64,000 bases of DNA from Alphaproteobacteria bacterium (GTDB lineage Bacteria; Pseudomonadota; Alphaproteobacteria; Rhizobiales; Xanthobacteraceae), in assembly GCA_005885285.1 (NCBI GenBank), contig VAZG01000187.1:2282-66281 (forward strand), in the 5' to 3' direction. A model generated the notes under the pieces. It had not been told where the DNA came from, ran no database searches, and saw nothing but the letters and a program-made list of their open reading frames with translations. The stretch's first letter is position 1; every line of letters starts with the position of its first letter. The translations under genes and the position numbers were made by a program. Shown here piece by piece: positions 25,037 through 62,023 of this stretch.

Positions 25037-25070
25037 GCTTTCCTATTGTCCCATGGGACAATAGGAAAGC
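25037..25070. repeat. perfect 34-bp palindrome containing a 7-2-7 motif
   Basis: GCTTTCCTATTGTCCCA|TGGGACAATAGGAAAGC. Confidence 0.9.
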
Positions 25071-41619: not shown

Positions 41620-41647
41620 CATGCTTGATCTAGCTAGATCAAGCATG
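41620..41647. repeat. perfect 28-bp palindrome: FixK box with CTAG duplicated
   Basis: CATGCTTGATCTAG|CTAGATCAAGCATG. Confidence 0.9.
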
Positions 41648-54296: not shown

Positions 54297-54614
54297 TCAG
54301 GCCGCGGCGCTCGTGTCCTTGCACTCGGCGGCGTCCGCGCAACACTCGGCAACGAGGAAATCCACCAGCCCTCGCATGACCTCGTAGTTCGCATGGCACA
54401 CCAACGTGGTGGCTTCTCGCACTTGGCTAATCAGGCCAACCATCACCAACGTTTTGATGTGATGCGAAAGGGTCGAGGGAGCGATCTTCAGCTTGTCCTG
54501 CAGGCGGCCGACCGGCAGACCCGCGTCGCCCGCGCGAACCAGCGCTCGGTAGATTTTAAGCCGGGTCGGATTGCCCAAGGCTTCGAGGTGTGCTGCTGCG
54601 TCATCAAGCTTCAT
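54297..54614 (-). CDS. arsR: ArsR family repressor
   Basis: LEALGNPTRL, STLSHH; C-terminal ECCADAAEC. Confidence 0.88.
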   Translation of the reverse strand: MKLDDAAAHLEALGNPTRLKIYRALVRAGDAGLPVGRLQDKLKIAPSTLSHHIKTLVMVGLISQVREATTLVCHANYEVMRGLVDFLVAECCADAAECKDTSAAA

Positions 54615-54649
54615 TGTTTCATCGTAGCATCGTCGTATTCGAATGACAA

Positions 54650-54669
54650 CCATATTTCTAGGATAATGG
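54650..54669. promoter_or_regulatory. putative ArsR operator
   Basis: CCATATTTCTAGGATAATGG overlapping the arsR start; resembles 61144-61163. Confidence 0.5.
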
Positions 54670-55019
54670 AACTATCAGAACTTGACAGCACCGTTCAATT
54701 CCATGACTCTCGCACGCGGCTTGAAGCGTTCCGGTTGCTGATCAAGCATGAGCCGCAAGGCGTTGCTGCGGGCGAGTTGGCTCGTCTTCTGTCGGTGCCC
54801 CAGAATACCCTTTCAGCCCATCTGAACGTGCTGACTCATGCCAATCTGGTGACGTCGGAGCGCCGAAGCCGGTCGATCATCTATCGCGCTCGACTGGATA
54901 GGCTGGAAGCGCTTTTGCTATTTTTGATGCAAGACTGCTGCAATGGACGCCCTGATGTCAGCACTCAGGTAATGAAGAGCGTAGCGAAGCAATTTTCCGC
55001 TACAAGGAGGGAACGCTGA
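54666..55019 (+). CDS. arsR: ArsR family repressor (atypical N-terminus, two Cys)
   Basis: TRLEAFRLLIKHEP, QNTLSAHL, DCCNGRPDVS. Confidence 0.75.
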   Translation: MELSELDSTVQFHDSRTRLEAFRLLIKHEPQGVAAGELARLLSVPQNTLSAHLNVLTHANLVTSERRSRSIIYRARLDRLEALLLFLMQDCCNGRPDVSTQVMKSVAKQFSATRRER

Positions 55020-55717
55020 TGCCGACTTTCGATCTGCGTCGGCGACTCTTCGCCGAGTTACTCGGTACAGCCCTCCTAGTAACAACGGTGGTCGGCTCCG
55101 GTATCATGGCCGAAACCCTGACAAAGGATGTCGCGCTTGCCTTGCTGGGCAACACGCTTCCCACGGGGGCGATCCTTGTTGTGCTCATCACTGTGCTTGG
55201 TCCGATCTCTGGGGCTCATTTCAACCCGGCCGTCTCGATCGTATTTGCGTTGAAACGCGAGCTTAGCACTCGGGAAACTGCGCTCTATATCATAGCGCAA
55301 ATCGTCGGCGGCATCCTGGGCACGATGATTGCGCACGGCATGTTTGCACTTCCCTTGCTGGAAGCTTCGATGAAGATCCGCACAGGTGGCGCGCAATGGT
55401 TCGCGGAGGCCATAGCGGCCTTTGGCTTGGTGGCAACCATCCTAGCAGGAACTCGCTTTCAGCAAAGCGCAGTTCCGTGGCTGGTCGGACTCTATATCAC
55501 AGCAGCCTATTGGTTCACCGCATCAACCTCGTTCGCAAATCCGGCCGTTGCGATCGCGCGATCGTTCACCAACACGTTTTCTGGCATTCGCCCGCTCGAC
55601 CTGCCCGGCTTCATCATCGCGGAGATCTGCGGTGCCGTGATTGGTATGATCGTGATGGCCTGGCTCTTGCGCCCCGACCCTTACGCCAAACCGCTTGATC
55701 CGGAGGCCAAATTATGA
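55019..55717 (+). CDS. MIP-family arsenite channel (AqpS-like)
   Basis: HFNPAV and SFANPAV motifs; located between arsR and arsC. Confidence 0.88.
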   Translation: MPTFDLRRRLFAELLGTALLVTTVVGSGIMAETLTKDVALALLGNTLPTGAILVVLITVLGPISGAHFNPAVSIVFALKRELSTRETALYIIAQIVGGILGTMIAHGMFALPLLEASMKIRTGGAQWFAEAIAAFGLVATILAGTRFQQSAVPWLVGLYITAAYWFTASTSFANPAVAIARSFTNTFSGIRPLDLPGFIIAEICGAVIGMIVMAWLLRPDPYAKPLDPEAKL

Positions 55718-56130
55718 GCGTGACCATCTATCACAATCCGGATTGCGGTACGTCGCGCAATGTACTCGCCATGATCAGACAGGGCGGAATCGAGCCTGAG
55801 ATCGTTGAATATCTAAAAACGCCACCATCGCGCGAGAAACTGATCGAATTGATCAAAGCGATGAACGTCAGCGTCCGGGCGCTTCTGCGGGAGAGGGGCA
55901 CGCCATATCACGAACTTGGTCTATGGGAGGCAAATTTGACGGACGACCAGCTAATCGACCAGATGCTCGCGCACCCGATCCTGATCAACCGTCCCATCGT
56001 GGTGACGGATAAAGGCGTGATGCTTTGCCGTCCGTCCGAGACCGTTCTTCCCCTGCTTCCTAACCCGGATATTGGGCGGTTCGTCAAGGAAGACGGCGAG
56101 ATTGTCGAGGCCGGTGCTCTTAAAGATTAA
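55714..56130 (+). CDS. arsC: glutaredoxin-dependent arsenate reductase
   Basis: HNPDCGTSRN, HPILINRPIV, CRPSE. Confidence 0.93.
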   Translation: MSVTIYHNPDCGTSRNVLAMIRQGGIEPEIVEYLKTPPSREKLIELIKAMNVSVRALLRERGTPYHELGLWEANLTDDQLIDQMLAHPILINRPIVVTDKGVMLCRPSETVLPLLPNPDIGRFVKEDGEIVEAGALKD

Positions 56131-57282
56131 ACGCAGTTCGGAATGGGTAATACCGCACTGGCGCTCCTGCGGGCAGGTCGTCGTGCTCAGCAGGAATACA
56201 GCCGAGACCATCGGCGAGGACCAGGGGGCGCAAGCGTGCTGACCCTCCCCGTCCGAGCTTCTCCAATAACGGAGTCCCTTGCGAATCGTGACCGACCACG
56301 CGGACAGGTACGAATTCGGTACGGCCCAAACGGTGCGAAAAGCTCGAGCCAGCTTTGGCCATCACCGTCGCGTGCTCAAGTGTACCGCCAGCGGCTTCCC
56401 CGGCTTCAGGGCAAGCGAAAGCTTCTCGCAGCTGCCGCCGGCCGCCAGGACTGAGGAAACAACATGGTCCGCATCGCTGCCTGAAACGCCACCTGAACAG
56501 ATCAGCAGGTCGAAAGTGCGGGCTGCCCGCGCGATTTGCCTGGTCAGTCGTTTTGGATCGTCGGGACAGCACCCGAGCATGCGCAGCTCAAGTGCCGGCG
56601 AAGAGAAGAGAGCTTGCAACATTGGACCGTTGCTGTCGTAGATCTGGTGTGGGCGTCGCGATCCGCCGGGCCGGGTCAGTTCGTCGCCGGTAGAGAGGAC
56701 GGCAACCCGGACGCGCCGCCGGACCTTGACGTGGGTCGCACCGGAGGCGGAGAGGATCGCGACATGTCTCGCATCGATCAACGTACCGGCTTCGATAATT
56801 TCCGAGCGGATGCCGACATCTTCGCCCGAACGGCGAATATTGAGCCCCGCCTCGGCGGGTTTTTCGATTGTGACATTTCGCTCCCGCGCGGTCGCCCTCT
56901 CTTCCATTACGACGGCAGCAACACGCTTCGGAACGGCGGCGCCGGTCAAGAGCCGCACCACCTCTCCCGCTGCGAGCCCAGGCGCAGCAAACGATCCGGC
57001 AACAACCTTGCCGGCCAGCTGGAAAGGACCGGTGGATGCTGCGGCGACATCGCCGGCATGGATTCCGTACCCGTCCACCGCGCTTTGGTCGAATGGAGGC
57101 AGTGGTATCTCGGAAACAACGGGGACTATCGTGATGCGACCCGCGCACGCGCGCAACGCGACCGTCTCTTTCCCCGCCACGGGCGCGACCACCCCGCGCG
57201 CGATCTTCAGTGCAGCGTCGACGCCGAGCAATCCGGGCCGGTCACAGACGCTCTCGGTGAAAAGCACTAGCCCCTCCCACAA
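56120..57282 (-). pseudogene. moeA: molybdopterin molybdotransferase, frameshifted with internal deletion
   Basis: SAVDGY, LLTGA, STGDEL, DSNGPML, SGGVS and KPGKP motifs, then a frameshift near 56380; the conserved LPGNP segment is absent before RTEFVPVRV. Confidence 0.85.
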
Positions 57283-57340: not shown

Positions 57341-59803
57341 TCAGGCCGTGTAGTCGAGGGACTTGAAGCTGAGGTGCTTCACGCCCTCCGGCGCGTCCGC
57401 AAGCTTACGGATGTTGCCCCAGGTCTGCTTGTAGTTCGGGATGACGAACTCGTTCACGCCGGGCGACACGACATTGCCTTGAACGCCATTCGGATTGGCG
57501 AACAGCATGAAGGTCTGCTTCCGCTTGGCCGTCGGCGTCGGATAGACCATCGCCTGGGTAGAACCGTTTTCGTTGTAAACCTCGACCAGATCGCCTTGCT
57601 TGAGCTTTAGCTCGCTCATGTCGTCCGGGTTCATCTGGATGTAGGGATAGGGCATGCGATCCATGACGAACTCGTTGTCCTGATCGAGATACGCGTTCTG
57701 CCAAGTGATGTTGGCGCGACCATTGTTGACGAGGAATGGCCACTTCTTACGTTCATCTTCCTTGCCGGGCGCCTGGAGGCCACGCCATTGCGTCTCCATA
57801 AATGTCGCCTTGCCATCCTTGGATTTGAATTTGCCGTCTGCAAATAAGCGCTTGGTACCAACGATCTTGCCGTCCTTGAAATCAGTCGCGGGCTCCTGAA
57901 AACCATTGGTCCCCATGGCTCTCAGCCGCTCATACGTAACGAACTCGCCACCCGCTTCATGACCATGGTAGCCGTCCATGAAAGCGTCTTCCTCGGTCTT
58001 CCAATCGAAGCCCTTGAACTTGTCGGCGTACTGACCTTTGCCCTGCTCGCGGAGCACGCGCTCCATGTTGTTGGCAATGCGCGCCGCGATAAGGCTGTCA
58101 GGCATCGCCTGCCCCGGCGGGTCCATGTACTTCTCGGTCAAACGCATGCGGCGTTCGCCGTTCATGGAGGTAAGATTAGCCTCGCCCGAGGTCGCTGCAG
58201 GAAGCCAGACGTGGCAGGCCTCGCCGATCTTGGTGGGAACGATATCCACGTCGACGGCAAATAGTCCCCCCTTCTTGATCGCCCCGACGATGGCGTTCAC
58301 CATCGCGGTGCGATCGCCATAGGGCACCGACATCATGGCATCCTTCACCATGTCGGTACGCTTCTTGTAGGCTTGCTTGAACTTGAAGGCGTTGAGCGTC
58401 GTCTTGTAGTGGTCGCATCCCCAGATGTGATGCACGCCGCCTTTGCCCGAGATCAACAGCTTGTCGACGTAGGCTGCTGGCCGTCCGACATGGGCGTCGG
58501 ATGGCCGCGAATAACCTTCCTGATGGCCGCCCATGCGGACACAACCACCACCAGGTCGACCGATATTGCCAGTGGCCAAGGCGACATTCACGAGCGCCCC
58601 ATTGGTGCGATAGTTGTCGTTGCCCCAAATGAGGCCCTTTTCGTAGGCGAACATGGTGCGCCGTCTTGCATTGCCCGCCTTGGGCTGTGCGATCCACTCG
58701 GCTGACTTCTGGATCTGGTCCACCGTAAGGCCGGTGAGCTTGGCGGCGTCTTCGAGGCTGACCTTGTTGGCTGCGACCGCCTTGTCGAAATTCTTGGTCG
58801 ACGCATCAATAAAGGCTTTGTCGGTCCAGCCTTTGCCCGCGATGTAGGTCAGCCAGGCGTTGAACAGCGCGAGGTCGGTGCCGGAATTGATGGCAAGATG
58901 CATCACGTTGTCTTTGCCAGCCTCGACTTCGCAGGCATTGACGGTGACGGTTCGCCGCGGATCGACGATCACGATCTTTCCGCGCTCAACCGGCTCGGAG
59001 CCGAACTCGGCTTTTTTCTTGTCCACCGAAGTGCCGCGCAGATTCGGCACCCAATGGTTCAGGAAATAGTTGGTCTGGGTTTCCAGCGCGTTTGTGCCGA
59101 CCGCGACGATAGTATCGGCAAGCTCGGCATCCTCGTAGCAGTTGTTGAGTTCGCCGACGCCCATGTCGCGGGTGGCGTGAACTTCGGAATTGTAGGCAGG
59201 ACGGTTGTGGATGCGGATGTTCTTGACCTTCATGGCCCCGAAATAGAGTTTGCCGGTGCCCCAGGTATTCTCGTAACCGCCGCCTGCACCACCGTGGTCG
59301 AAAGCGGAAACGAATAATCCGTCCTCGCCCATGTCGTTAATTACCGCGACGGTAACGCGCGCCACGAGATCGAGCGCATCGTCCCAGCCGGTCGGCTGCA
59401 TCTGCCCGTAGCGCCACACCATCGGGTCCGTAAGGCGCTGGAGCTGGGTATTGCGCTGCTGTGAATAGCTCATCTCGGCCATGCGCGCGCCGCGCACCGA
59501 GCCGAGACCGGAATTTACCACGCAGTCCTTGTCGGGCTTGATGACGATATGCACGTCGTTCCCGTTCTGCCGCACGATGTTGTACATAGATGGCGAATAC
59601 CAGGCCTCCGTCTCGGCACCCTGTTGCTTGCTAAGGTCGGTTCCGAATTTGTTTTGATCTGCTGCGGTGCCGCCTTGCTTGTTGGTCGGCCAAGTGTACG
59701 CCTTGTAGCCGCAACCAACGATGCAGTAGTGGCAGGTGACGTTGAATTCCTTGGCGTCCTTGGGGACGATCGGAAGACGGTCGATCTGACGCTTGTAAGC
59801 CAT
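57341..59803 (-). CDS. aioA: arsenite oxidase large subunit
   Basis: MAYKRQIDRLPI start; CHYCIVGC [3Fe-4S] motif; HNRPAYNSE; AFDHGGAGGG. Confidence 0.97.
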   Translation of the reverse strand: MAYKRQIDRLPIVPKDAKEFNVTCHYCIVGCGYKAYTWPTNKQGGTAADQNKFGTDLSKQQGAETEAWYSPSMYNIVRQNGNDVHIVIKPDKDCVVNSGLGSVRGARMAEMSYSQQRNTQLQRLTDPMVWRYGQMQPTGWDDALDLVARVTVAVINDMGEDGLFVSAFDHGGAGGGYENTWGTGKLYFGAMKVKNIRIHNRPAYNSEVHATRDMGVGELNNCYEDAELADTIVAVGTNALETQTNYFLNHWVPNLRGTSVDKKKAEFGSEPVERGKIVIVDPRRTVTVNACEVEAGKDNVMHLAINSGTDLALFNAWLTYIAGKGWTDKAFIDASTKNFDKAVAANKVSLEDAAKLTGLTVDQIQKSAEWIAQPKAGNARRRTMFAYEKGLIWGNDNYRTNGALVNVALATGNIGRPGGGCVRMGGHQEGYSRPSDAHVGRPAAYVDKLLISGKGGVHHIWGCDHYKTTLNAFKFKQAYKKRTDMVKDAMMSVPYGDRTAMVNAIVGAIKKGGLFAVDVDIVPTKIGEACHVWLPAATSGEANLTSMNGERRMRLTEKYMDPPGQAMPDSLIAARIANNMERVLREQGKGQYADKFKGFDWKTEEDAFMDGYHGHEAGGEFVTYERLRAMGTNGFQEPATDFKDGKIVGTKRLFADGKFKSKDGKATFMETQWRGLQAPGKEDERKKWPFLVNNGRANITWQNAYLDQDNEFVMDRMPYPYIQMNPDDMSELKLKQGDLVEVYNENGSTQAMVYPTPTAKRKQTFMLFANPNGVQGNVVSPGVNEFVIPNYKQTWGNIRKLADAPEGVKHLSFKSLDYTA

Positions 59804-59815
59804 GATCTTCTCTCC

Positions 59816-60337
59816 TCACAGCACGTTGGACAGGCGGCCGTACAAAAGCTCATCCACGCCCTCGGCGTAGATGTCGCCCTTGTCGTCGACACGTAGTGCG
59901 TATTGCGGAAGATTTTGGGTGGCGTGACCCCAGACCTGCTGGCCGCCCGACTCACAGTCGAAGCGGGAGTAGTGACCAGGACAATTCAATGTCTTGTCGC
60001 CCGCGTTGTAGTTCAGCGGAAAGCCCTTGTGCGGACACGTGGTCGAGAAGCCGACGATGTCGCCATCGGCGCCGACGCCGCCCGGAACGCGCTTGCCCAG
60101 CTTGAGCAACACGCCGGGCGCATCCGTATCCGGATACGCGACGGTGACAGGTTCGTTCGGCTTGAGATCGGAGATATTCGCAAGACGGTTGGAAGGGTAA
60201 TCAACCCGCGCAGCTCCCGGTGCAGCCTTGGCCTGAACCGGTACCATCGTTGCCACCGCGGCTCCCGCGGCAGCGAAACCGGCACCGCCTAGGAATCGGC
60301 GACGGCCGGCATCAACCATCTTATCGCAATGGCTCAT
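59816..60337 (-). CDS. aioB: arsenite oxidase Rieske small subunit
   Basis: Tat signal RRRFL; CPHKG and CPGHYS Rieske motifs. Confidence 0.96.
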   Translation of the reverse strand: MSHCDKMVDAGRRRFLGGAGFAAAGAAVATMVPVQAKAAPGAARVDYPSNRLANISDLKPNEPVTVAYPDTDAPGVLLKLGKRVPGGVGADGDIVGFSTTCPHKGFPLNYNAGDKTLNCPGHYSRFDCESGGQQVWGHATQNLPQYALRVDDKGDIYAEGVDELLYGRLSNVL

Positions 60338-60357
60338 GGACGTTCTCCTCGGACGCG

Positions 60358-60410
60358 CCGGTACGCCTACCGACGAGGTTTCCTCAAGGATGCGACCGGT
60401 ACGCCTACCG
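60358..60410. repeat. 15-bp direct repeat CCGGTACGCCTACCG x2
   Basis: Copies at 60358-60372 and 60396-60410; each is a mini-hairpin CGGTA/TACCG. Confidence 0.85.
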
Positions 60411-60458
60411 GCCGAGCGTCTCGTTCAAAAATCGCCACACGGCTCCTAAAGCTCGGAC

Positions 60459-60484
60459 GACATGTCGAGATGTCTCGACATGTC
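60459..60484. promoter_or_regulatory. perfect 12-2-12 inverted repeat, ArsR/SmtB-type operator
   Basis: GACATGTCGAGA-TG-TCTCGACATGTC between divergent aioB and arsR. Confidence 0.75.
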
Positions 60485-60569
60485 TAATAGTAGAAACATT
60501 CTGGCTTGTCACCTGTGTGTCGGTTAAAAGACAAAGAGAAATCTGGAATCGCAAGACGGAATCGAAGCA

Positions 60570-61028
60570 ATGCGCAAAACGATGCTGGCAGTCGCGAGTC
60601 ACGCCGGCCCGATCTCGACTGGAAACCGGCGCAGTGAAGCACACGCGATTTCCGCTCTTTCTGCCTTGGCGCAACCGACACGCCTCGCGATCTTCCGTCT
60701 GCTGATCAAGCATGAGCCCGTAGGAATGACCGCTGGAGTGATCGCCGATACCGTCGGTGCACCGCACAACACTTTATCGTCTCACCTTGCCATCCTGGTC
60801 CGGGCGGGGCTGCTGCGGAGTTCCCGCGAAGGACGAACGATCATCTATCGTTCTGACGTGGACGGCATGCAGTCGTTGTTGTCGTTTTTGGTCAACGACT
60901 GCTGCGACGGGCATCCAGAACTCTGCAATCTTGCGGCTCCCGCCGCTGGATGTTGCACCGCCGCTCCAGCGAAAAACGGCGCTCGGAAGTCTGCGTCGGC
61001 TGCTCGTAGAGCAAAGCGCACCCGCTAA
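60570..61028 (+). CDS. arsR: ArsR family repressor
   Basis: ALSALAQPTRL, HNTLSSHL, DCCDGHPELC. Confidence 0.9.
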   Translation: MRKTMLAVASHAGPISTGNRRSEAHAISALSALAQPTRLAIFRLLIKHEPVGMTAGVIADTVGAPHNTLSSHLAILVRAGLLRSSREGRTIIYRSDVDGMQSLLSFLVNDCCDGHPELCNLAAPAAGCCTAAPAKNGARKSASAARRAKRTR

Positions 61029-61143
61029 GCCAAAAACGCCGCTCTGAGCGGCCCTCTGGTTTGTCATGCCAACGTCATCTCAATGATGACGCTGGCCGTC
61101 GTCGAAAAAAGCTTTCCTGGAATAGCGTCCTAGTCTAGTATCT

Positions 61144-61163
61144 CCATATGTCGAGACTTATGG
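61144..61163. promoter_or_regulatory. putative ArsR operator
   Basis: CCATATGTCGAGACTTATGG overlapping the start codon; shares ATGTCGAGA with the 60459 site. Confidence 0.55.
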
Positions 61164-62023
61164 ACGAATACGATGCTGTAGCCGGGCTGGGGTCGCTCGG
61201 CCAATCCACGCGGCTCGCCGTTCTTCGCAATCTCTTGAAAGTTCACCCCGACGGCCTCAACGCCGGCGACATCGCGCGCATGTGCGAGGTGCCGCACAAC
61301 ACCATGTCGGCGCACCTTGGCGTTCTCAGCCGCGCCGGCCTCGTCCTGGTTGAGCGGCAAGGCCGGGTGATGAATTACCGCGCCGACCTCGGCGGATTCC
61401 GGGGCCTGGTCGAATTCCTGGCGCGCGATTGCTGTGGCGGACGACCCGAACTCTGCGCCGACATTTTGCAGCGATACCCTGTCGTAACCGATGAGCCGAA
61501 GGCAACGGAGAGTGTCATGACTCCTGCGTTCAACGTTCTCTTTCTCTGCACTCATAACTCTGCGCGTTCGATCATAGCGGAGGCTTTACTTGAAAAGATC
61601 GGCCGCGGAGGCTTCCGCGGCTATTCCGCTGGGGCGGAGCCCGCCGCAGCCCCCCTTCCGGAAGTGATCGATCGGCTGAGGGTTCTTGGCCACGACGTGT
61701 CCCGCTTGCGGTGTAAGTCTTGGGATGAGTTCAAACGTCCGGAAGCACCTCGCATGGATTTCGTCATCGCACTGTGCGATGCGCCGCATGGCCAGTTTTG
61801 TCCTGACCTTGCCGGCCCATTCATCACCGCTGCCTGGCCCCTCCCCGATCCGGCGCAGTTCAAGGGTTCGGCAACAGAGCGTACCACCCTGTTGAACGAG
61901 CTTTACGCCATGGTTCGTCGGCGGCTTGAGATATTCACGAGTCTTCCGTTCAAGACGCTCGATCGCATGGCTCTCAAGGCGCGCCTGGACGAAATTGGCG
62001 ATACGGCGCGCGTAGCGCCCTGA
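61160..62023 (+). CDS. ArsR-ArsC (LMW-PTP type) fusion protein
   Basis: ArsR domain ([10 protein letters not shown]) followed by [11 protein letters not shown] and WPLPDP. Confidence 0.88.

What the first reader, a model, noticed from the sequence alone, without database searches (positions are those of the whole stretch)
59816..61028. Arsenite oxidase apparently under direct ArsR repression instead of AioXSR/sigma54
The best-studied proteobacterial aioBA operons need AioX, AioS, AioR and RpoN. Here the divergent neighbour is an arsR, I see no TGGCAC-N5-TTGC element, and a perfect 12-2-12 inverted repeat (60459-60484) lies about 120 bp upstream of aioB. This predicts a one-component, derepression-type switch for arsenite oxidation. 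aioXSR-less clusters are known, but I do not know of this operator architecture being characterised.
Basis: partly seen in the sequence, partly recalled or inferred. Interest (0 to 1): 0.65.

Follow-up and report, generated by a model that had tools for sequence, protein, structure and literature searches.

The report
ArsR operator on arsenite oxidase promoter
A small arsenic-sensing repressor gene sits back-to-back with the arsenite oxidase genes, and its conserved palindromic binding site lies on the oxidase promoter, so this soil bacterium and about 40 relatives probably switch on arsenite oxidation by simple derepression, without the usual three-protein AioXSR sensor.

Summary
A perfect 12-2-12 inverted repeat (60459-60484) lies between aioBA (minus strand) and a divergent arsR (60570-61028). 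It is unique in the 6.24 Mb genome.

The genome has no aioX and no aioS or aioR orthologue. The intergenic region has no sigma-54 promoter and no AioR box.

The same arsR/aioBA arrangement occurs in the Nitrobacter hamburgensis X14 plasmid and in about 43 Bradyrhizobium-like species; 38 of 39 of those genomes lack AioX. Across them the core ATGTCGAGA-N2-TCTCGACAT is nearly invariant. It sits at a fixed distance directly after a conserved sigma-70-like promoter (GTGACA-N17-TATnnn) that points at aioB.

Related palindromes also precede arsR orthologues that are not next to aioBA, so the palindrome is the cognate operator of this ArsR clade.

The protein is an AfArsR-type sensor: closest structure 6J05, with an invariant Cys111/Cys112/Cys119 triad.

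Best reading (about 0.65): ArsR blocks the aioB promoter and cytoplasmic As(III) releases it. Binding, the transcription start and derepression are all inferred, not shown.

There is precedent in Thermus (an arsR-family gene controls aioBA) and in Thiomonas AioF, so this is a new variant of a known kind.

I also found two covarying stem-loops of unknown role in the aioB leader.

The parts
57341..59803 (-). aioA, arsenite oxidase large (molybdopterin) subunit, 820 aa
   Evidence: TIGR02693 at 1298 bits (cut-off 359); Pfam Rieske_3, Molybdopterin and Molydop_binding. 89% identical to N. hamburgensis X14 plasmid AioA.
59816..60337 (-). aioB, arsenite oxidase small (Rieske) subunit, 173 aa, with a twin-arginine signal (GRRRFL)
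   Evidence: TIGR02694 at 200 bits (cut-off 96); translation.
60358..60373 (-). aioB-proximal leader stem-loop UCGGUAGGCGUACCGG, followed by the Shine-Dalgarno GAGGAGA and the aioB ATG
   Evidence: Repeat found. Covariation: 99.6% of cells paired, and compensatory GC to AU and AU to CG changes in 3 of 6 pairs.
60396..60411 (-). aioB-distal leader stem-loop CCGGUAGGCGUACCGG, followed by a Shine-Dalgarno-like GAGGAAAC
   Evidence: 97.1% of cells paired, 5 of 6 pairs with a change on both sides. The motif is unique to this leader in the genome and has no Rfam family.
60459..60484 (.). Perfect 12-2-12 inverted repeat; the conserved core is ATGTCGAGA-N2-TCTCGACAT (60462-60481). Proposed ArsR operator covering the aioB transcription start region.
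   Evidence: exists, unique, non-random. (about 2 bits per position across 43 species, fixed spacing to the promoter). (related palindromes upstream of arsR-type genes that are not next to aioBA).
60484..60490 (-). -10-like element of the aioB promoter (CTATTAG; TATTAG frame). Relatives have TATTAA, TATTGA or TATCGT at the same place.
   Evidence: The position is conserved, 17 nt after the -35. The tool's strict sigma-70 scan, which requires T at position 6, reported nothing.
60507..60512 (-). -35-like element of the aioB promoter, GTGACA. TGACA is nearly invariant; distant members have ATGACA or CTGACA.
60570..61028 (+). arsR, 152 aa, an AfArsR-type ArsR/SmtB metalloregulator. Winged HTH at residues 33-84; Cys111, Cys112 and Cys119 in an invariant DCCDGHPELC motif; basic C-terminal tail.
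   Evidence: Pfam HTH_20 at 58.5 bits and NF033788 at 63 bits. PDB 6J05 (AfArsR) at E 3.4e-21, with Cys-Cys and the third Cys aligned to Cys95/96/102. Invariance in 40 orthologues.

Best explanation
This is a one-component, derepression-type switch for arsenite oxidase.

aioBA is transcribed from a sigma-70-type promoter: -35 GTGACA at 60507-60512, a 17-nt spacer, and a -10-like TATTAG at 60484-60489. The start region of that promoter is covered by the palindrome ATGTCGAGA-N2-TCTCGACAT (60462-60481, extended to a perfect 12-2-12 at 60459-60484).

A dimer of the divergently encoded AfArsR-type ArsR (60570-61028) binds this palindrome when arsenic is absent and blocks RNA polymerase. The two half-site centres are 11 bp apart, one helical turn.

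Cytoplasmic As(III) binds the C-terminal Cys111/Cys112/Cys119 site. ArsR then leaves the DNA and aioBA is expressed. No AioX, AioS, AioR or sigma-54 promoter takes part.

Shown here: the sequence elements, their uniqueness, their conservation and fixed geometry, the absence of aioXSR, the family and cysteine site of the regulator, and the link between palindrome and regulator clade.

Inferred: the transcription start site, physical binding, which of the island's three ArsR paralogues binds, release by As(III), and how arsR itself is expressed.
For: - Anatomy: a perfect 12-2-12 repeat between aioB and the divergent arsR.
- Uniqueness: one copy in 6.24 Mb at up to 2 mismatches.
- aioXSR is absent. 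There is no AioX hit. The best AioS-like hits are at most 27% identical and the best AioR-like hits at most 38% over most of the query (one 46% hit covers the ATPase domain only). True orthologues (Bosea against pSinA) share 60% (AioX), 42% (AioS) and 53% (AioR).
- There is no sigma-54 promoter or AioR box, while the control loci have both.
- The same arrangement occurs in the N. hamburgensis X14 plasmid and in 40-plus species. Of 39 such genomes, 38 lack AioX.
- In an unbiased sample of 251 genomes of the family, 29 carry aioA. Of these, 14 have aioX beside it and 8 have the divergent arsR instead.
- In an alignment of 43 intergenic regions the only strongly conserved blocks upstream of the leader are TGACA, TTC.A.TAT and the palindrome, with no indels between them in 40 of 43.
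- More distant members (ArsR 55-64% identical) keep the order -35, N17, -10, palindrome, although the sequence around these elements has diverged.
- Related palindromes ATGTCGA-N6-TCGACAT lie upstream of arsR orthologues that have no aioBA neighbour. In L045 and L046 they sit directly after a CTATAT-like -10 that points to arsR.
- The regulator's closest structure is AfArsR (6J05), with the As(III)-binding cysteines aligned and invariant.
- A Pro to Ala change at the start of the recognition helix goes with a G to T change at half-site position 3 in L088, L092 and L093. This is weak evidence, possibly a single evolutionary event.
- Thermus precedent: loss of the aio-linked arsR-family gene gives constitutive aioBA (PMC8963470).
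Against:
- The -10 lacks the usual final T in most members, and the strict sigma-70 scan found nothing.
- The island holds two more AfArsR-type paralogues (61148-62023 and 54393-55019) with similar recognition helices. In aioXSR-type relatives the same palindrome precedes an arsR2-gapdh-arsJ operon. The binding protein could therefore be ArsR2, or several ArsRs together.
- The one characterised proteobacterial ArsR-family regulator of aioBA, AioF, binds only when arsenic is present and acts positively.
- The genome is 94% complete in 623 contigs.
- I could not identify a promoter for arsR itself.
Confidence: 0.65

Rival explanations
1. The palindrome is an ArsR-family operator, but the protein that works on it is another ArsR of the island, or several of them. 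Candidates are the ArsR-phosphatase fusion at 61148-62023 and the ArsR at 54393-55019. The adjacent arsR would then be only one contributor, or would mainly regulate itself.
For: All three paralogues share the DCCxGxP motif and similar recognition helices. In the aioXSR-type genome G268 the same palindrome lies 95 nt upstream of arsR2-gapdh-arsJ with no ArsR1-type gene nearby. A half-site, ATGTCGAGAC, overlaps the arsR2 start codon in the window.
Against: The adjacent arsR is the constant partner of the palindrome in 40-plus loci, whereas arsR2 lies within 4 kb in only about 17 of them. The protein and operator co-vary in L088, L092 and L093.
Confidence: 0.15
2. ArsR works like Thiomonas AioF. 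It binds the aioB upstream region only when arsenic is present and stimulates transcription, instead of repressing it when arsenic is absent.
For: AioF is the only ArsR/SmtB protein shown by EMSA to bind an aioB regulatory region in a proteobacterium, and it binds only with arsenic (review PMC7533571).
Against: The site lies directly after the -10, over the predicted start. That is a repressor position, not an activator position. AioF is encoded inside the aioBA operon and works together with AioXSR, which is absent here. The protein keeps the sensor site of the classical repressor AfArsR. The Thermus loss-of-function variant is constitutive.
Confidence: 0.07
3. aioBA needs a further, unrecognised activator, for example PhoB as in Halomonas sp. 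HAL1, an oxygen or redox regulator of the neighbouring FixK-type island, or a factor acting on the two leader stem-loops. ArsR would then only fine-tune expression.
For: PhoBR controls aioBA in an aioXSR-less Halomonas (PMC4563254 abstract). In N. hamburgensis and a few relatives the -35 box is part of a Pho-box-like direct repeat, CTTGTCAC-N4-CTGTCAT (read). Two covarying leader hairpins of unknown role exist.
Against: The second Pho-like repeat is not conserved across the clade. The conserved -35/-10 pair looks self-sufficient. The hairpins are missing in more distant arsR-aioB loci that keep the promoter and operator.
Confidence: 0.1
4. The palindrome acts mainly as RNA, as a 5'-terminal stem-loop that stabilises the aioBA transcript, and not as a protein-binding DNA site.
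For: If transcription starts just after the -10, the palindrome is transcribed. It then folds into an 11-bp stem at the 5' end of the leader.
Against: The sequence itself is nearly invariant, with few compensatory changes, unlike the leader hairpins that vary by compensation. The same sequence occurs upstream of arsR genes in other contexts and orientations.
Confidence: 0.03

Closest known systems
AfArsR of Acidithiobacillus ferrooxidans (PDB 6J05), the type-2 As(III)-responsive ArsR repressor
   Same: Closest solved structure (E 3.4e-21). Same winged-helix ArsR/SmtB fold family. C-terminal Cys-Cys and third Cys align with Cys95, Cys96 and Cys102. An inverted-repeat operator next to a promoter, and divergent gene organisation.
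   Different: The cysteine spacing is CC-X6-C here and CC-X5-C in AfArsR. This protein has a conserved N-terminal extension (MRKTMLAVASHA...) and a basic C-terminal tail with a further Cys pair. The controlled operon is aioBA (arsenite oxidation), not arsenic resistance genes.
The arsR-family gene upstream of aioBA in Thermus tengchongensis (PMC8963470)
   Same: aioBA has an adjacent ArsR-family regulator and no aioXSR. Natural disruption of that regulator gives constitutive aioBA, which is the phenotype predicted here.
   Different: Different phylum. No operator was defined there, only predicted motifs. Sequence relatedness of the two regulators was not tested here; no Thermus record was among the 25 best plasmid hits listed for this ArsR. 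Those authors state that the one-component system was known only in Thermus.
AioF of Thiomonas arsenitoxydans (ArsR/SmtB family; Moinier et al. 2014, read through review PMC7533571)
   Same: An ArsR/SmtB protein that binds the aioB regulatory region and links arsenic to aioBA expression.
   Different: AioF is encoded inside the aioBA operon. It binds only in the presence of arsenic, acts positively, and works together with AioXSR and sigma-54. Here the gene is divergent, aioXSR is absent, and the site is in a repressor position.
AioXSR/RpoN-dependent aioBA (Agrobacterium tumefaciens, Sinorhizobium sp. M14 pSinA, Bosea sp. F3-2)
   Same: Homologous aioBA (AioA 74-82% identical), the same bacterial order, and arsenic-island context.
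   Different: Those loci carry aioX-aioS-aioR upstream, a TGGCAC-N5-TTGC promoter and a GTTCGGAAATCYGAAC box. None of these is present here. They sense periplasmic As(III), whereas this system would sense cytoplasmic As(III).

Membership tests
ArsR/SmtB metalloregulators, AfArsR-type As(III) sensor | Winged helix-turn-helix domain of the ArsR/SmtB family | tested here: met
   Pfam HTH_20 at 58.5 bits (cut-off 27) and HTH_5 at 22.2 (cut-off 22); NCBIfam NF033788 at 63 bits (cut-off 55).
ArsR/SmtB metalloregulators, AfArsR-type As(III) sensor | C-terminal three-cysteine As(III) site (Cys95, Cys96, Cys102 of AfArsR) | tested here: met
   In the alignment to 6J05, Cys111/Cys112 lie on Cys95/Cys96 and Cys119 on Cys102, with a one-residue insertion. 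DCC(D/N)GHPE(L/I/F)C is invariant in 40 orthologues.
ArsR/SmtB metalloregulators, AfArsR-type As(III) sensor | Inverted-repeat operator overlapping the regulated promoter | tested here: met
   A perfect 12-2-12 repeat directly after a conserved -35/-10. The promoter assignment is by consensus and conservation only.
ArsR/SmtB metalloregulators, AfArsR-type As(III) sensor | DNA binding without As(III) and release with As(III) | not testable with these tools
   Needs EMSA or footprinting and reporter assays.
AioXSR/sigma-54-dependent aioBA regulation | aioX, aioS and aioR genes present | tested here: not met
   tblastn of the Bosea and pSinA proteins against the whole genome gave no AioX hit. AioS-like hits were at most 27% identical. 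AioR-like hits were at most 38% over most of the query, with one 46% hit over the ATPase domain only. Orthologue yardstick: 60%, 42% and 53%. The genome is 94% complete.
AioXSR/sigma-54-dependent aioBA regulation | -24/-12 promoter (TGGCAC-N5-TTGC) and AioR box upstream of aioB | tested here: not met
   Neither is in the intergenic region at up to 2 or 3 mismatches respectively. The positive controls pSinA and Bosea have them.
AioF-type regulation (Thiomonas) | Regulator encoded within the aioBA operon and acting together with AioXSR | tested here: not met
   arsR is divergent and upstream of aioB, and aioXSR is absent. The AioF description comes from PMC7533571. Sequence similarity to AioF was not tested because no AioF sequence was available.
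Arsenite oxidase AioBA | Large Mo-bisPGD/3Fe-4S subunit and small Rieske subunit with Tat signal, adjacent as aioB-aioA | tested here: met
   TIGR02693 at 1298 bits and TIGR02694 at 200 bits, both equivalog models above their cut-offs. GRRRFL and the CPHKG...CPGH motifs are in AioB.

The most novel reading that the evidence does not exclude
In the Bradyrhizobium/Nitrobacter lineage, a cytoplasmic ArsR repressor with a defined operator has replaced the periplasmic AioXSR/sigma-54 system as the master switch of arsenite oxidation. This happened by placing an ArsR-controlled promoter-operator module, otherwise used for ars resistance operons in the same family, in front of aioBA. In addition, the aioB leader of the Bradyrhizobium-like subclade carries a previously undescribed pair of covarying stem-loops. 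These act as a second, post-transcriptional control element.
Probability: 0.3. Interest if true: 0.65.

Novelty: new variant of a known kind. Interest (0 to 1): 0.5.

Why it matters
Regulation of arsenite oxidation is understood almost entirely through AioXSR and RpoN. Clusters without aioXSR ('Type III') are known, but how they are regulated is mostly unexplained. The exceptions are PhoBR in one Halomonas and a natural variant in Thermus.

This locus gives a concrete, conserved and testable cis-element and regulator pair for a large group of soil Bradyrhizobium-like bacteria and for the N. hamburgensis plasmid. In an unbiased sample it accounts for 8 of the 15 aioA genomes of this family that lack aioX.

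The model implies that these organisms induce a periplasmic enzyme in response to cytoplasmic As(III). That would change induction thresholds and the coupling to arsenic uptake and efflux.

The compact arsR-PaioB module could also serve as an arsenite biosensor part. Relatives with a frameshifted arsR offer ready-made natural tests.

Tried and rejected
- Strict sigma-70 scan of 60250-61250: no hit, because the -10 lacks T at position 6. The promoter call therefore rests on conservation and spacing.
- Rfam search of 60200-61250 at E up to 10: only one chance-level hit inside aioB.
- NCBIfam has no HMM for AioX, AioS or AioR, so I used protein queries from Bosea and pSinA.
- The AioF paper (PMC4178639) is not held. 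I took AioF properties from a review.
- I looked for an arsR promoter on the plus strand. TTGTCA (60506-60511) has no -10 at 16-18 nt, and the conserved TAAAAG lies only 13 nt away. No convincing promoter was found.
- Pho-box idea: a perfect second repeat occurs only in the Nitrobacter-like subset and is not conserved, so I kept it only as a weak rival.
- The minimum-free-energy fold pairs the two leader elements with each other. The consensus fold does not support this and prefers two local hairpins.
- Earlier scan notes near this place concern other features and did not bear on the switch.

Full report
**What is there.** The finding spans three things:
- aioB (59816-60337, minus strand; TIGR02694 at 200 bits);
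- a 232-bp intergenic region;
- a divergent arsR (60570-61028, plus strand; Pfam HTH_20, NCBIfam NF033788 at 63 bits against a cut-off of 55).

aioA follows aioB (57341-59803; TIGR02693 at 1298 bits).

The surroundings are an arsenic island:
- an arsR-aqpS-arsC(grx) unit at 54393-56130;
- a short moeA-like gene;
- a second arsR fused to a low-molecular-weight phosphatase domain (61148-62023);
- the ArsJ-type GAPDH and an MFS transporter.

The perfect 12-2-12 inverted repeat GACATGTCGAGA-tg-TCTCGACATGTC lies at 60459-60484. Its near edge is 121 nt from the aioB ATG and 85 nt from the arsR ATG.

**Is it more than chance?** The 18 specified core positions occur once in the 6.24 Mb assembly, even with two mismatches allowed. 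Perfect repeats with 12-nt arms and a gap of 0-6 occur at three places in the window. The genome scan listed 175 hits, many of them nested versions of one site, and most are terminators or a repeated element.

**No AioXSR, no sigma-54 promoter.** I took AioX, AioS and AioR from Bosea sp. F3-2 and from Sinorhizobium sp. M14 pSinA and ran tblastn against the whole genome.
- AioX gave no hit.
- AioS gave only generic kinase-domain hits, at most 27% identical.
- AioR gave NtrC-like hits of 32-38% over most of the query, plus one 46% hit confined to the ATPase domain.
- True orthologues between the two reference organisms share 60%, 42% and 53%.

The assembly is 94% complete.

TGGCAC-N5-TTGC is absent from the intergenic region at up to two mismatches. 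pSinA has an exact copy 36 nt before aioB, and Bosea has CGGCAC-N5-CTGC. The box GTTCGGAAATCYGAAC is shared by both reference loci and is also absent from the intergenic region.

**Conservation.** The closest plasmid-borne aioA is on N. hamburgensis X14 plasmid 2 (89% identical). That locus has the same divergent ArsR/SmtB gene and no aioXSR.

A search of species-representative genomes with the ArsR found 69 loci. About 43 of them, mostly Bradyrhizobium-like MAGs and isolates, have arsR divergent from aioBA. Of 39 such genomes, 38 lack an AioX orthologue. The single exception carries aioX-aioS on another contig.

I also took an unbiased sample of 251 genomes of the same family. Of these, 29 carry aioA:
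- 14 have aioX beside aioA;
- 8 have the divergent arsR instead;
- 7 are cut by contig ends, are distant, or have another arrangement.

**The intergenic architecture.** I aligned 43 intergenic regions and also stacked them without gaps, anchored on the palindrome. Three blocks reach high information content, and no indels separate them in 40 of 43 sequences:
- TGACA, within (G)GTGACA;
- TTC.A.TAT;
- ATGTCGAGA-N2-TCTCGACAT.

Read in the aioB direction, this is -35 GTGACA (60507-60512), a 17-nt spacer, -10-like TATTAG (60484-60489), and then the palindrome immediately after.

More distant members (ArsR 55-64% identical) keep the same order and spacing although the sequence around these elements has diverged. 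Examples are ATGACA-N17-TATCGT followed by ATTTCGAGA-tc-TCTCGACAT, and GTGACA-N17-TAGGAT followed by the palindrome.

The operator therefore covers the predicted start of aioB transcription, which is the position of a repressor. The region between the palindrome and arsR is poorly conserved, and I could not identify an arsR promoter.

**The palindrome belongs to the regulator clade.** Related palindromes ATGTCGA-N6-TCGACAT precede arsR orthologues that are not next to aioBA (L045, L046, L057, L058, L059). In L045 and L046 they sit directly after a CTATAT-like -10 that points at arsR.

In aioXSR-type genomes of the same family, the palindrome sits upstream of an arsR2-gapdh-arsJ operon or of other genes of the arsenic island.

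So the promoter-operator module is a general device of arsenic islands in this family. In the aioXSR-less lineage it stands in front of aioBA.

This also raises a caveat: other ArsR paralogues may recognise the same site. The window's three ArsRs have similar recognition helices. Two things point to the adjacent arsR. It is the constant neighbour of the palindrome. And a Pro to Ala change at the start of the recognition helix goes with a G to T change at half-site position 3 in three loci. That second point is weak and may reflect a single event.

**The regulator.** The closest solved structure is AfArsR (6J05, E 3.4e-21). Cys111/Cys112 align with Cys95/Cys96, and Cys119 aligns with Cys102 after a one-residue insertion. 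The motif DCC(D/N)GHPE(L/I/F)C is invariant in the orthologues. There is no CVC motif of the R773 type. This is the As(III) site of a classical repressor that is released by As(III).

**Mechanism proposed.** ArsR binds the palindrome and blocks the aioB promoter. Cytoplasmic As(III) releases it. Everything beyond the sequence anatomy is inferred: the transcription start, binding, release, and which paralogue acts.

**Comparison with what is known.** A review classes clusters without aioXSR as 'Type III' and describes AioF of Thiomonas. AioF is an ArsR/SmtB protein encoded in the aioBA operon that binds only with arsenic and cooperates with AioXSR (PMC7533571).

N. hamburgensis X14 is listed as having aioBA without aioXSR (PMC3834237).

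In Thermus tengchongensis an arsR-family gene lies upstream of aioBA. Its natural disruption makes aioBA constitutive. Those authors say such a one-component system was known only in Thermus (PMC8963470).

Three literature searches found no paper on the operator described here.

The finding is therefore a new variant of a known kind: a standard ArsR repressor-operator pair recruited to an unusual target, conserved across many species.

**Also seen: leader stem-loops.** The aioB leader holds two copies of CCGGTAGGCGTACCGG (60396-60411 and 60358-60373). Each is followed by GAGGA(A/G)A, and only the second is followed by the ATG.

Across 40 sequences, 98.3% of cells pair, against 92.9% in shuffles. 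Eight of 12 pairs show changes on both sides. Of the one-sided changes, 17 cells are G.U pairs on the aioB-sense strand, and 3 cells are C.A, which would be wobble pairs on the other strand. This favours an RNA structure.

The motif is unique in the genome and absent from aioXSR-type leaders. It is absent from the more distant arsR-aioB loci and matches no Rfam family. Its role is unknown.

**Verdict.** Interest is moderate.

Noticed in passing
window 60358-60373 and 60396-60411 (minus-strand sense): Two copies of a 6-bp stem / GGCG-loop hairpin (CCGGUAGGCGUACCGG) in the aioB 5' leader. Each is followed by a Shine-Dalgarno-like GAGGA(A/G)A. They show strong covariation and strand-specific G.U pairs across 40 species. 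There is no Rfam match and no other copy in the genome. They are present only in the Bradyrhizobium-like subclade.
   Followed up: partly
window 61140-61165; L011, L014, L040, L033 upstream of arsR2: The start codon of the ArsR-phosphatase fusion gene (61148) lies inside a half-site, ATGTCGAGAC. Relatives have the everted pair GTCTCGA-t-ATGTCGAGAC there, with a -10-like TCTAAT 8 nt upstream. This suggests an operator over a nearly leaderless start.
   Followed up: partly
window 61068-61096: A second inverted repeat, GCCAACGTCATC-N5-GATGACGCTGGC, lies between arsR and arsR2. It is partly conserved in relatives with the same gene order (TGTCATGCCAACGTCATC block).
   Followed up: no
L063/L094 (Bradyrhizobium sp. 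SYSU BS000235), L060, L095: The aioBA-linked arsR is frameshifted or truncated in some relatives, while the palindrome and aioBA look intact. These may be natural constitutive variants, or assembly errors in the MAGs.
   Followed up: no
window 54393-55019: The third ArsR paralogue of the island has DCCNGRPDVS, so it lacks the third cysteine of the AfArsR triad. The listed ORF has a long, probably untranslated N-terminal extension.
   Followed up: no
window 56362-57282: The moeA-like gene after aioA is short. It has 306 aa and matches only positions 3-282 of the 401-position MoeA profile. No cytochrome c gene follows aioA, unlike in Bosea and pSinA.
   Followed up: partly
window 25039-25068 and 41620-41647: Two other perfect palindromes in the window: TTTCCTATTGTCCCATGGGACAATAGGAAA and CATGCTTGATCTAGCTAGATCAAGCATG. 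The second contains a TTGAT-N4-ATCAA, FixK/FNR-like core.
   Followed up: no
genome-wide (contigs C21, C105, C139, C147 and others): A 24-nt perfect palindrome, ACCCGGAATCTCGAGATTCCGGGT, recurs on about 20 contigs. It is probably a REP-like or mobile-element repeat.
   Followed up: no
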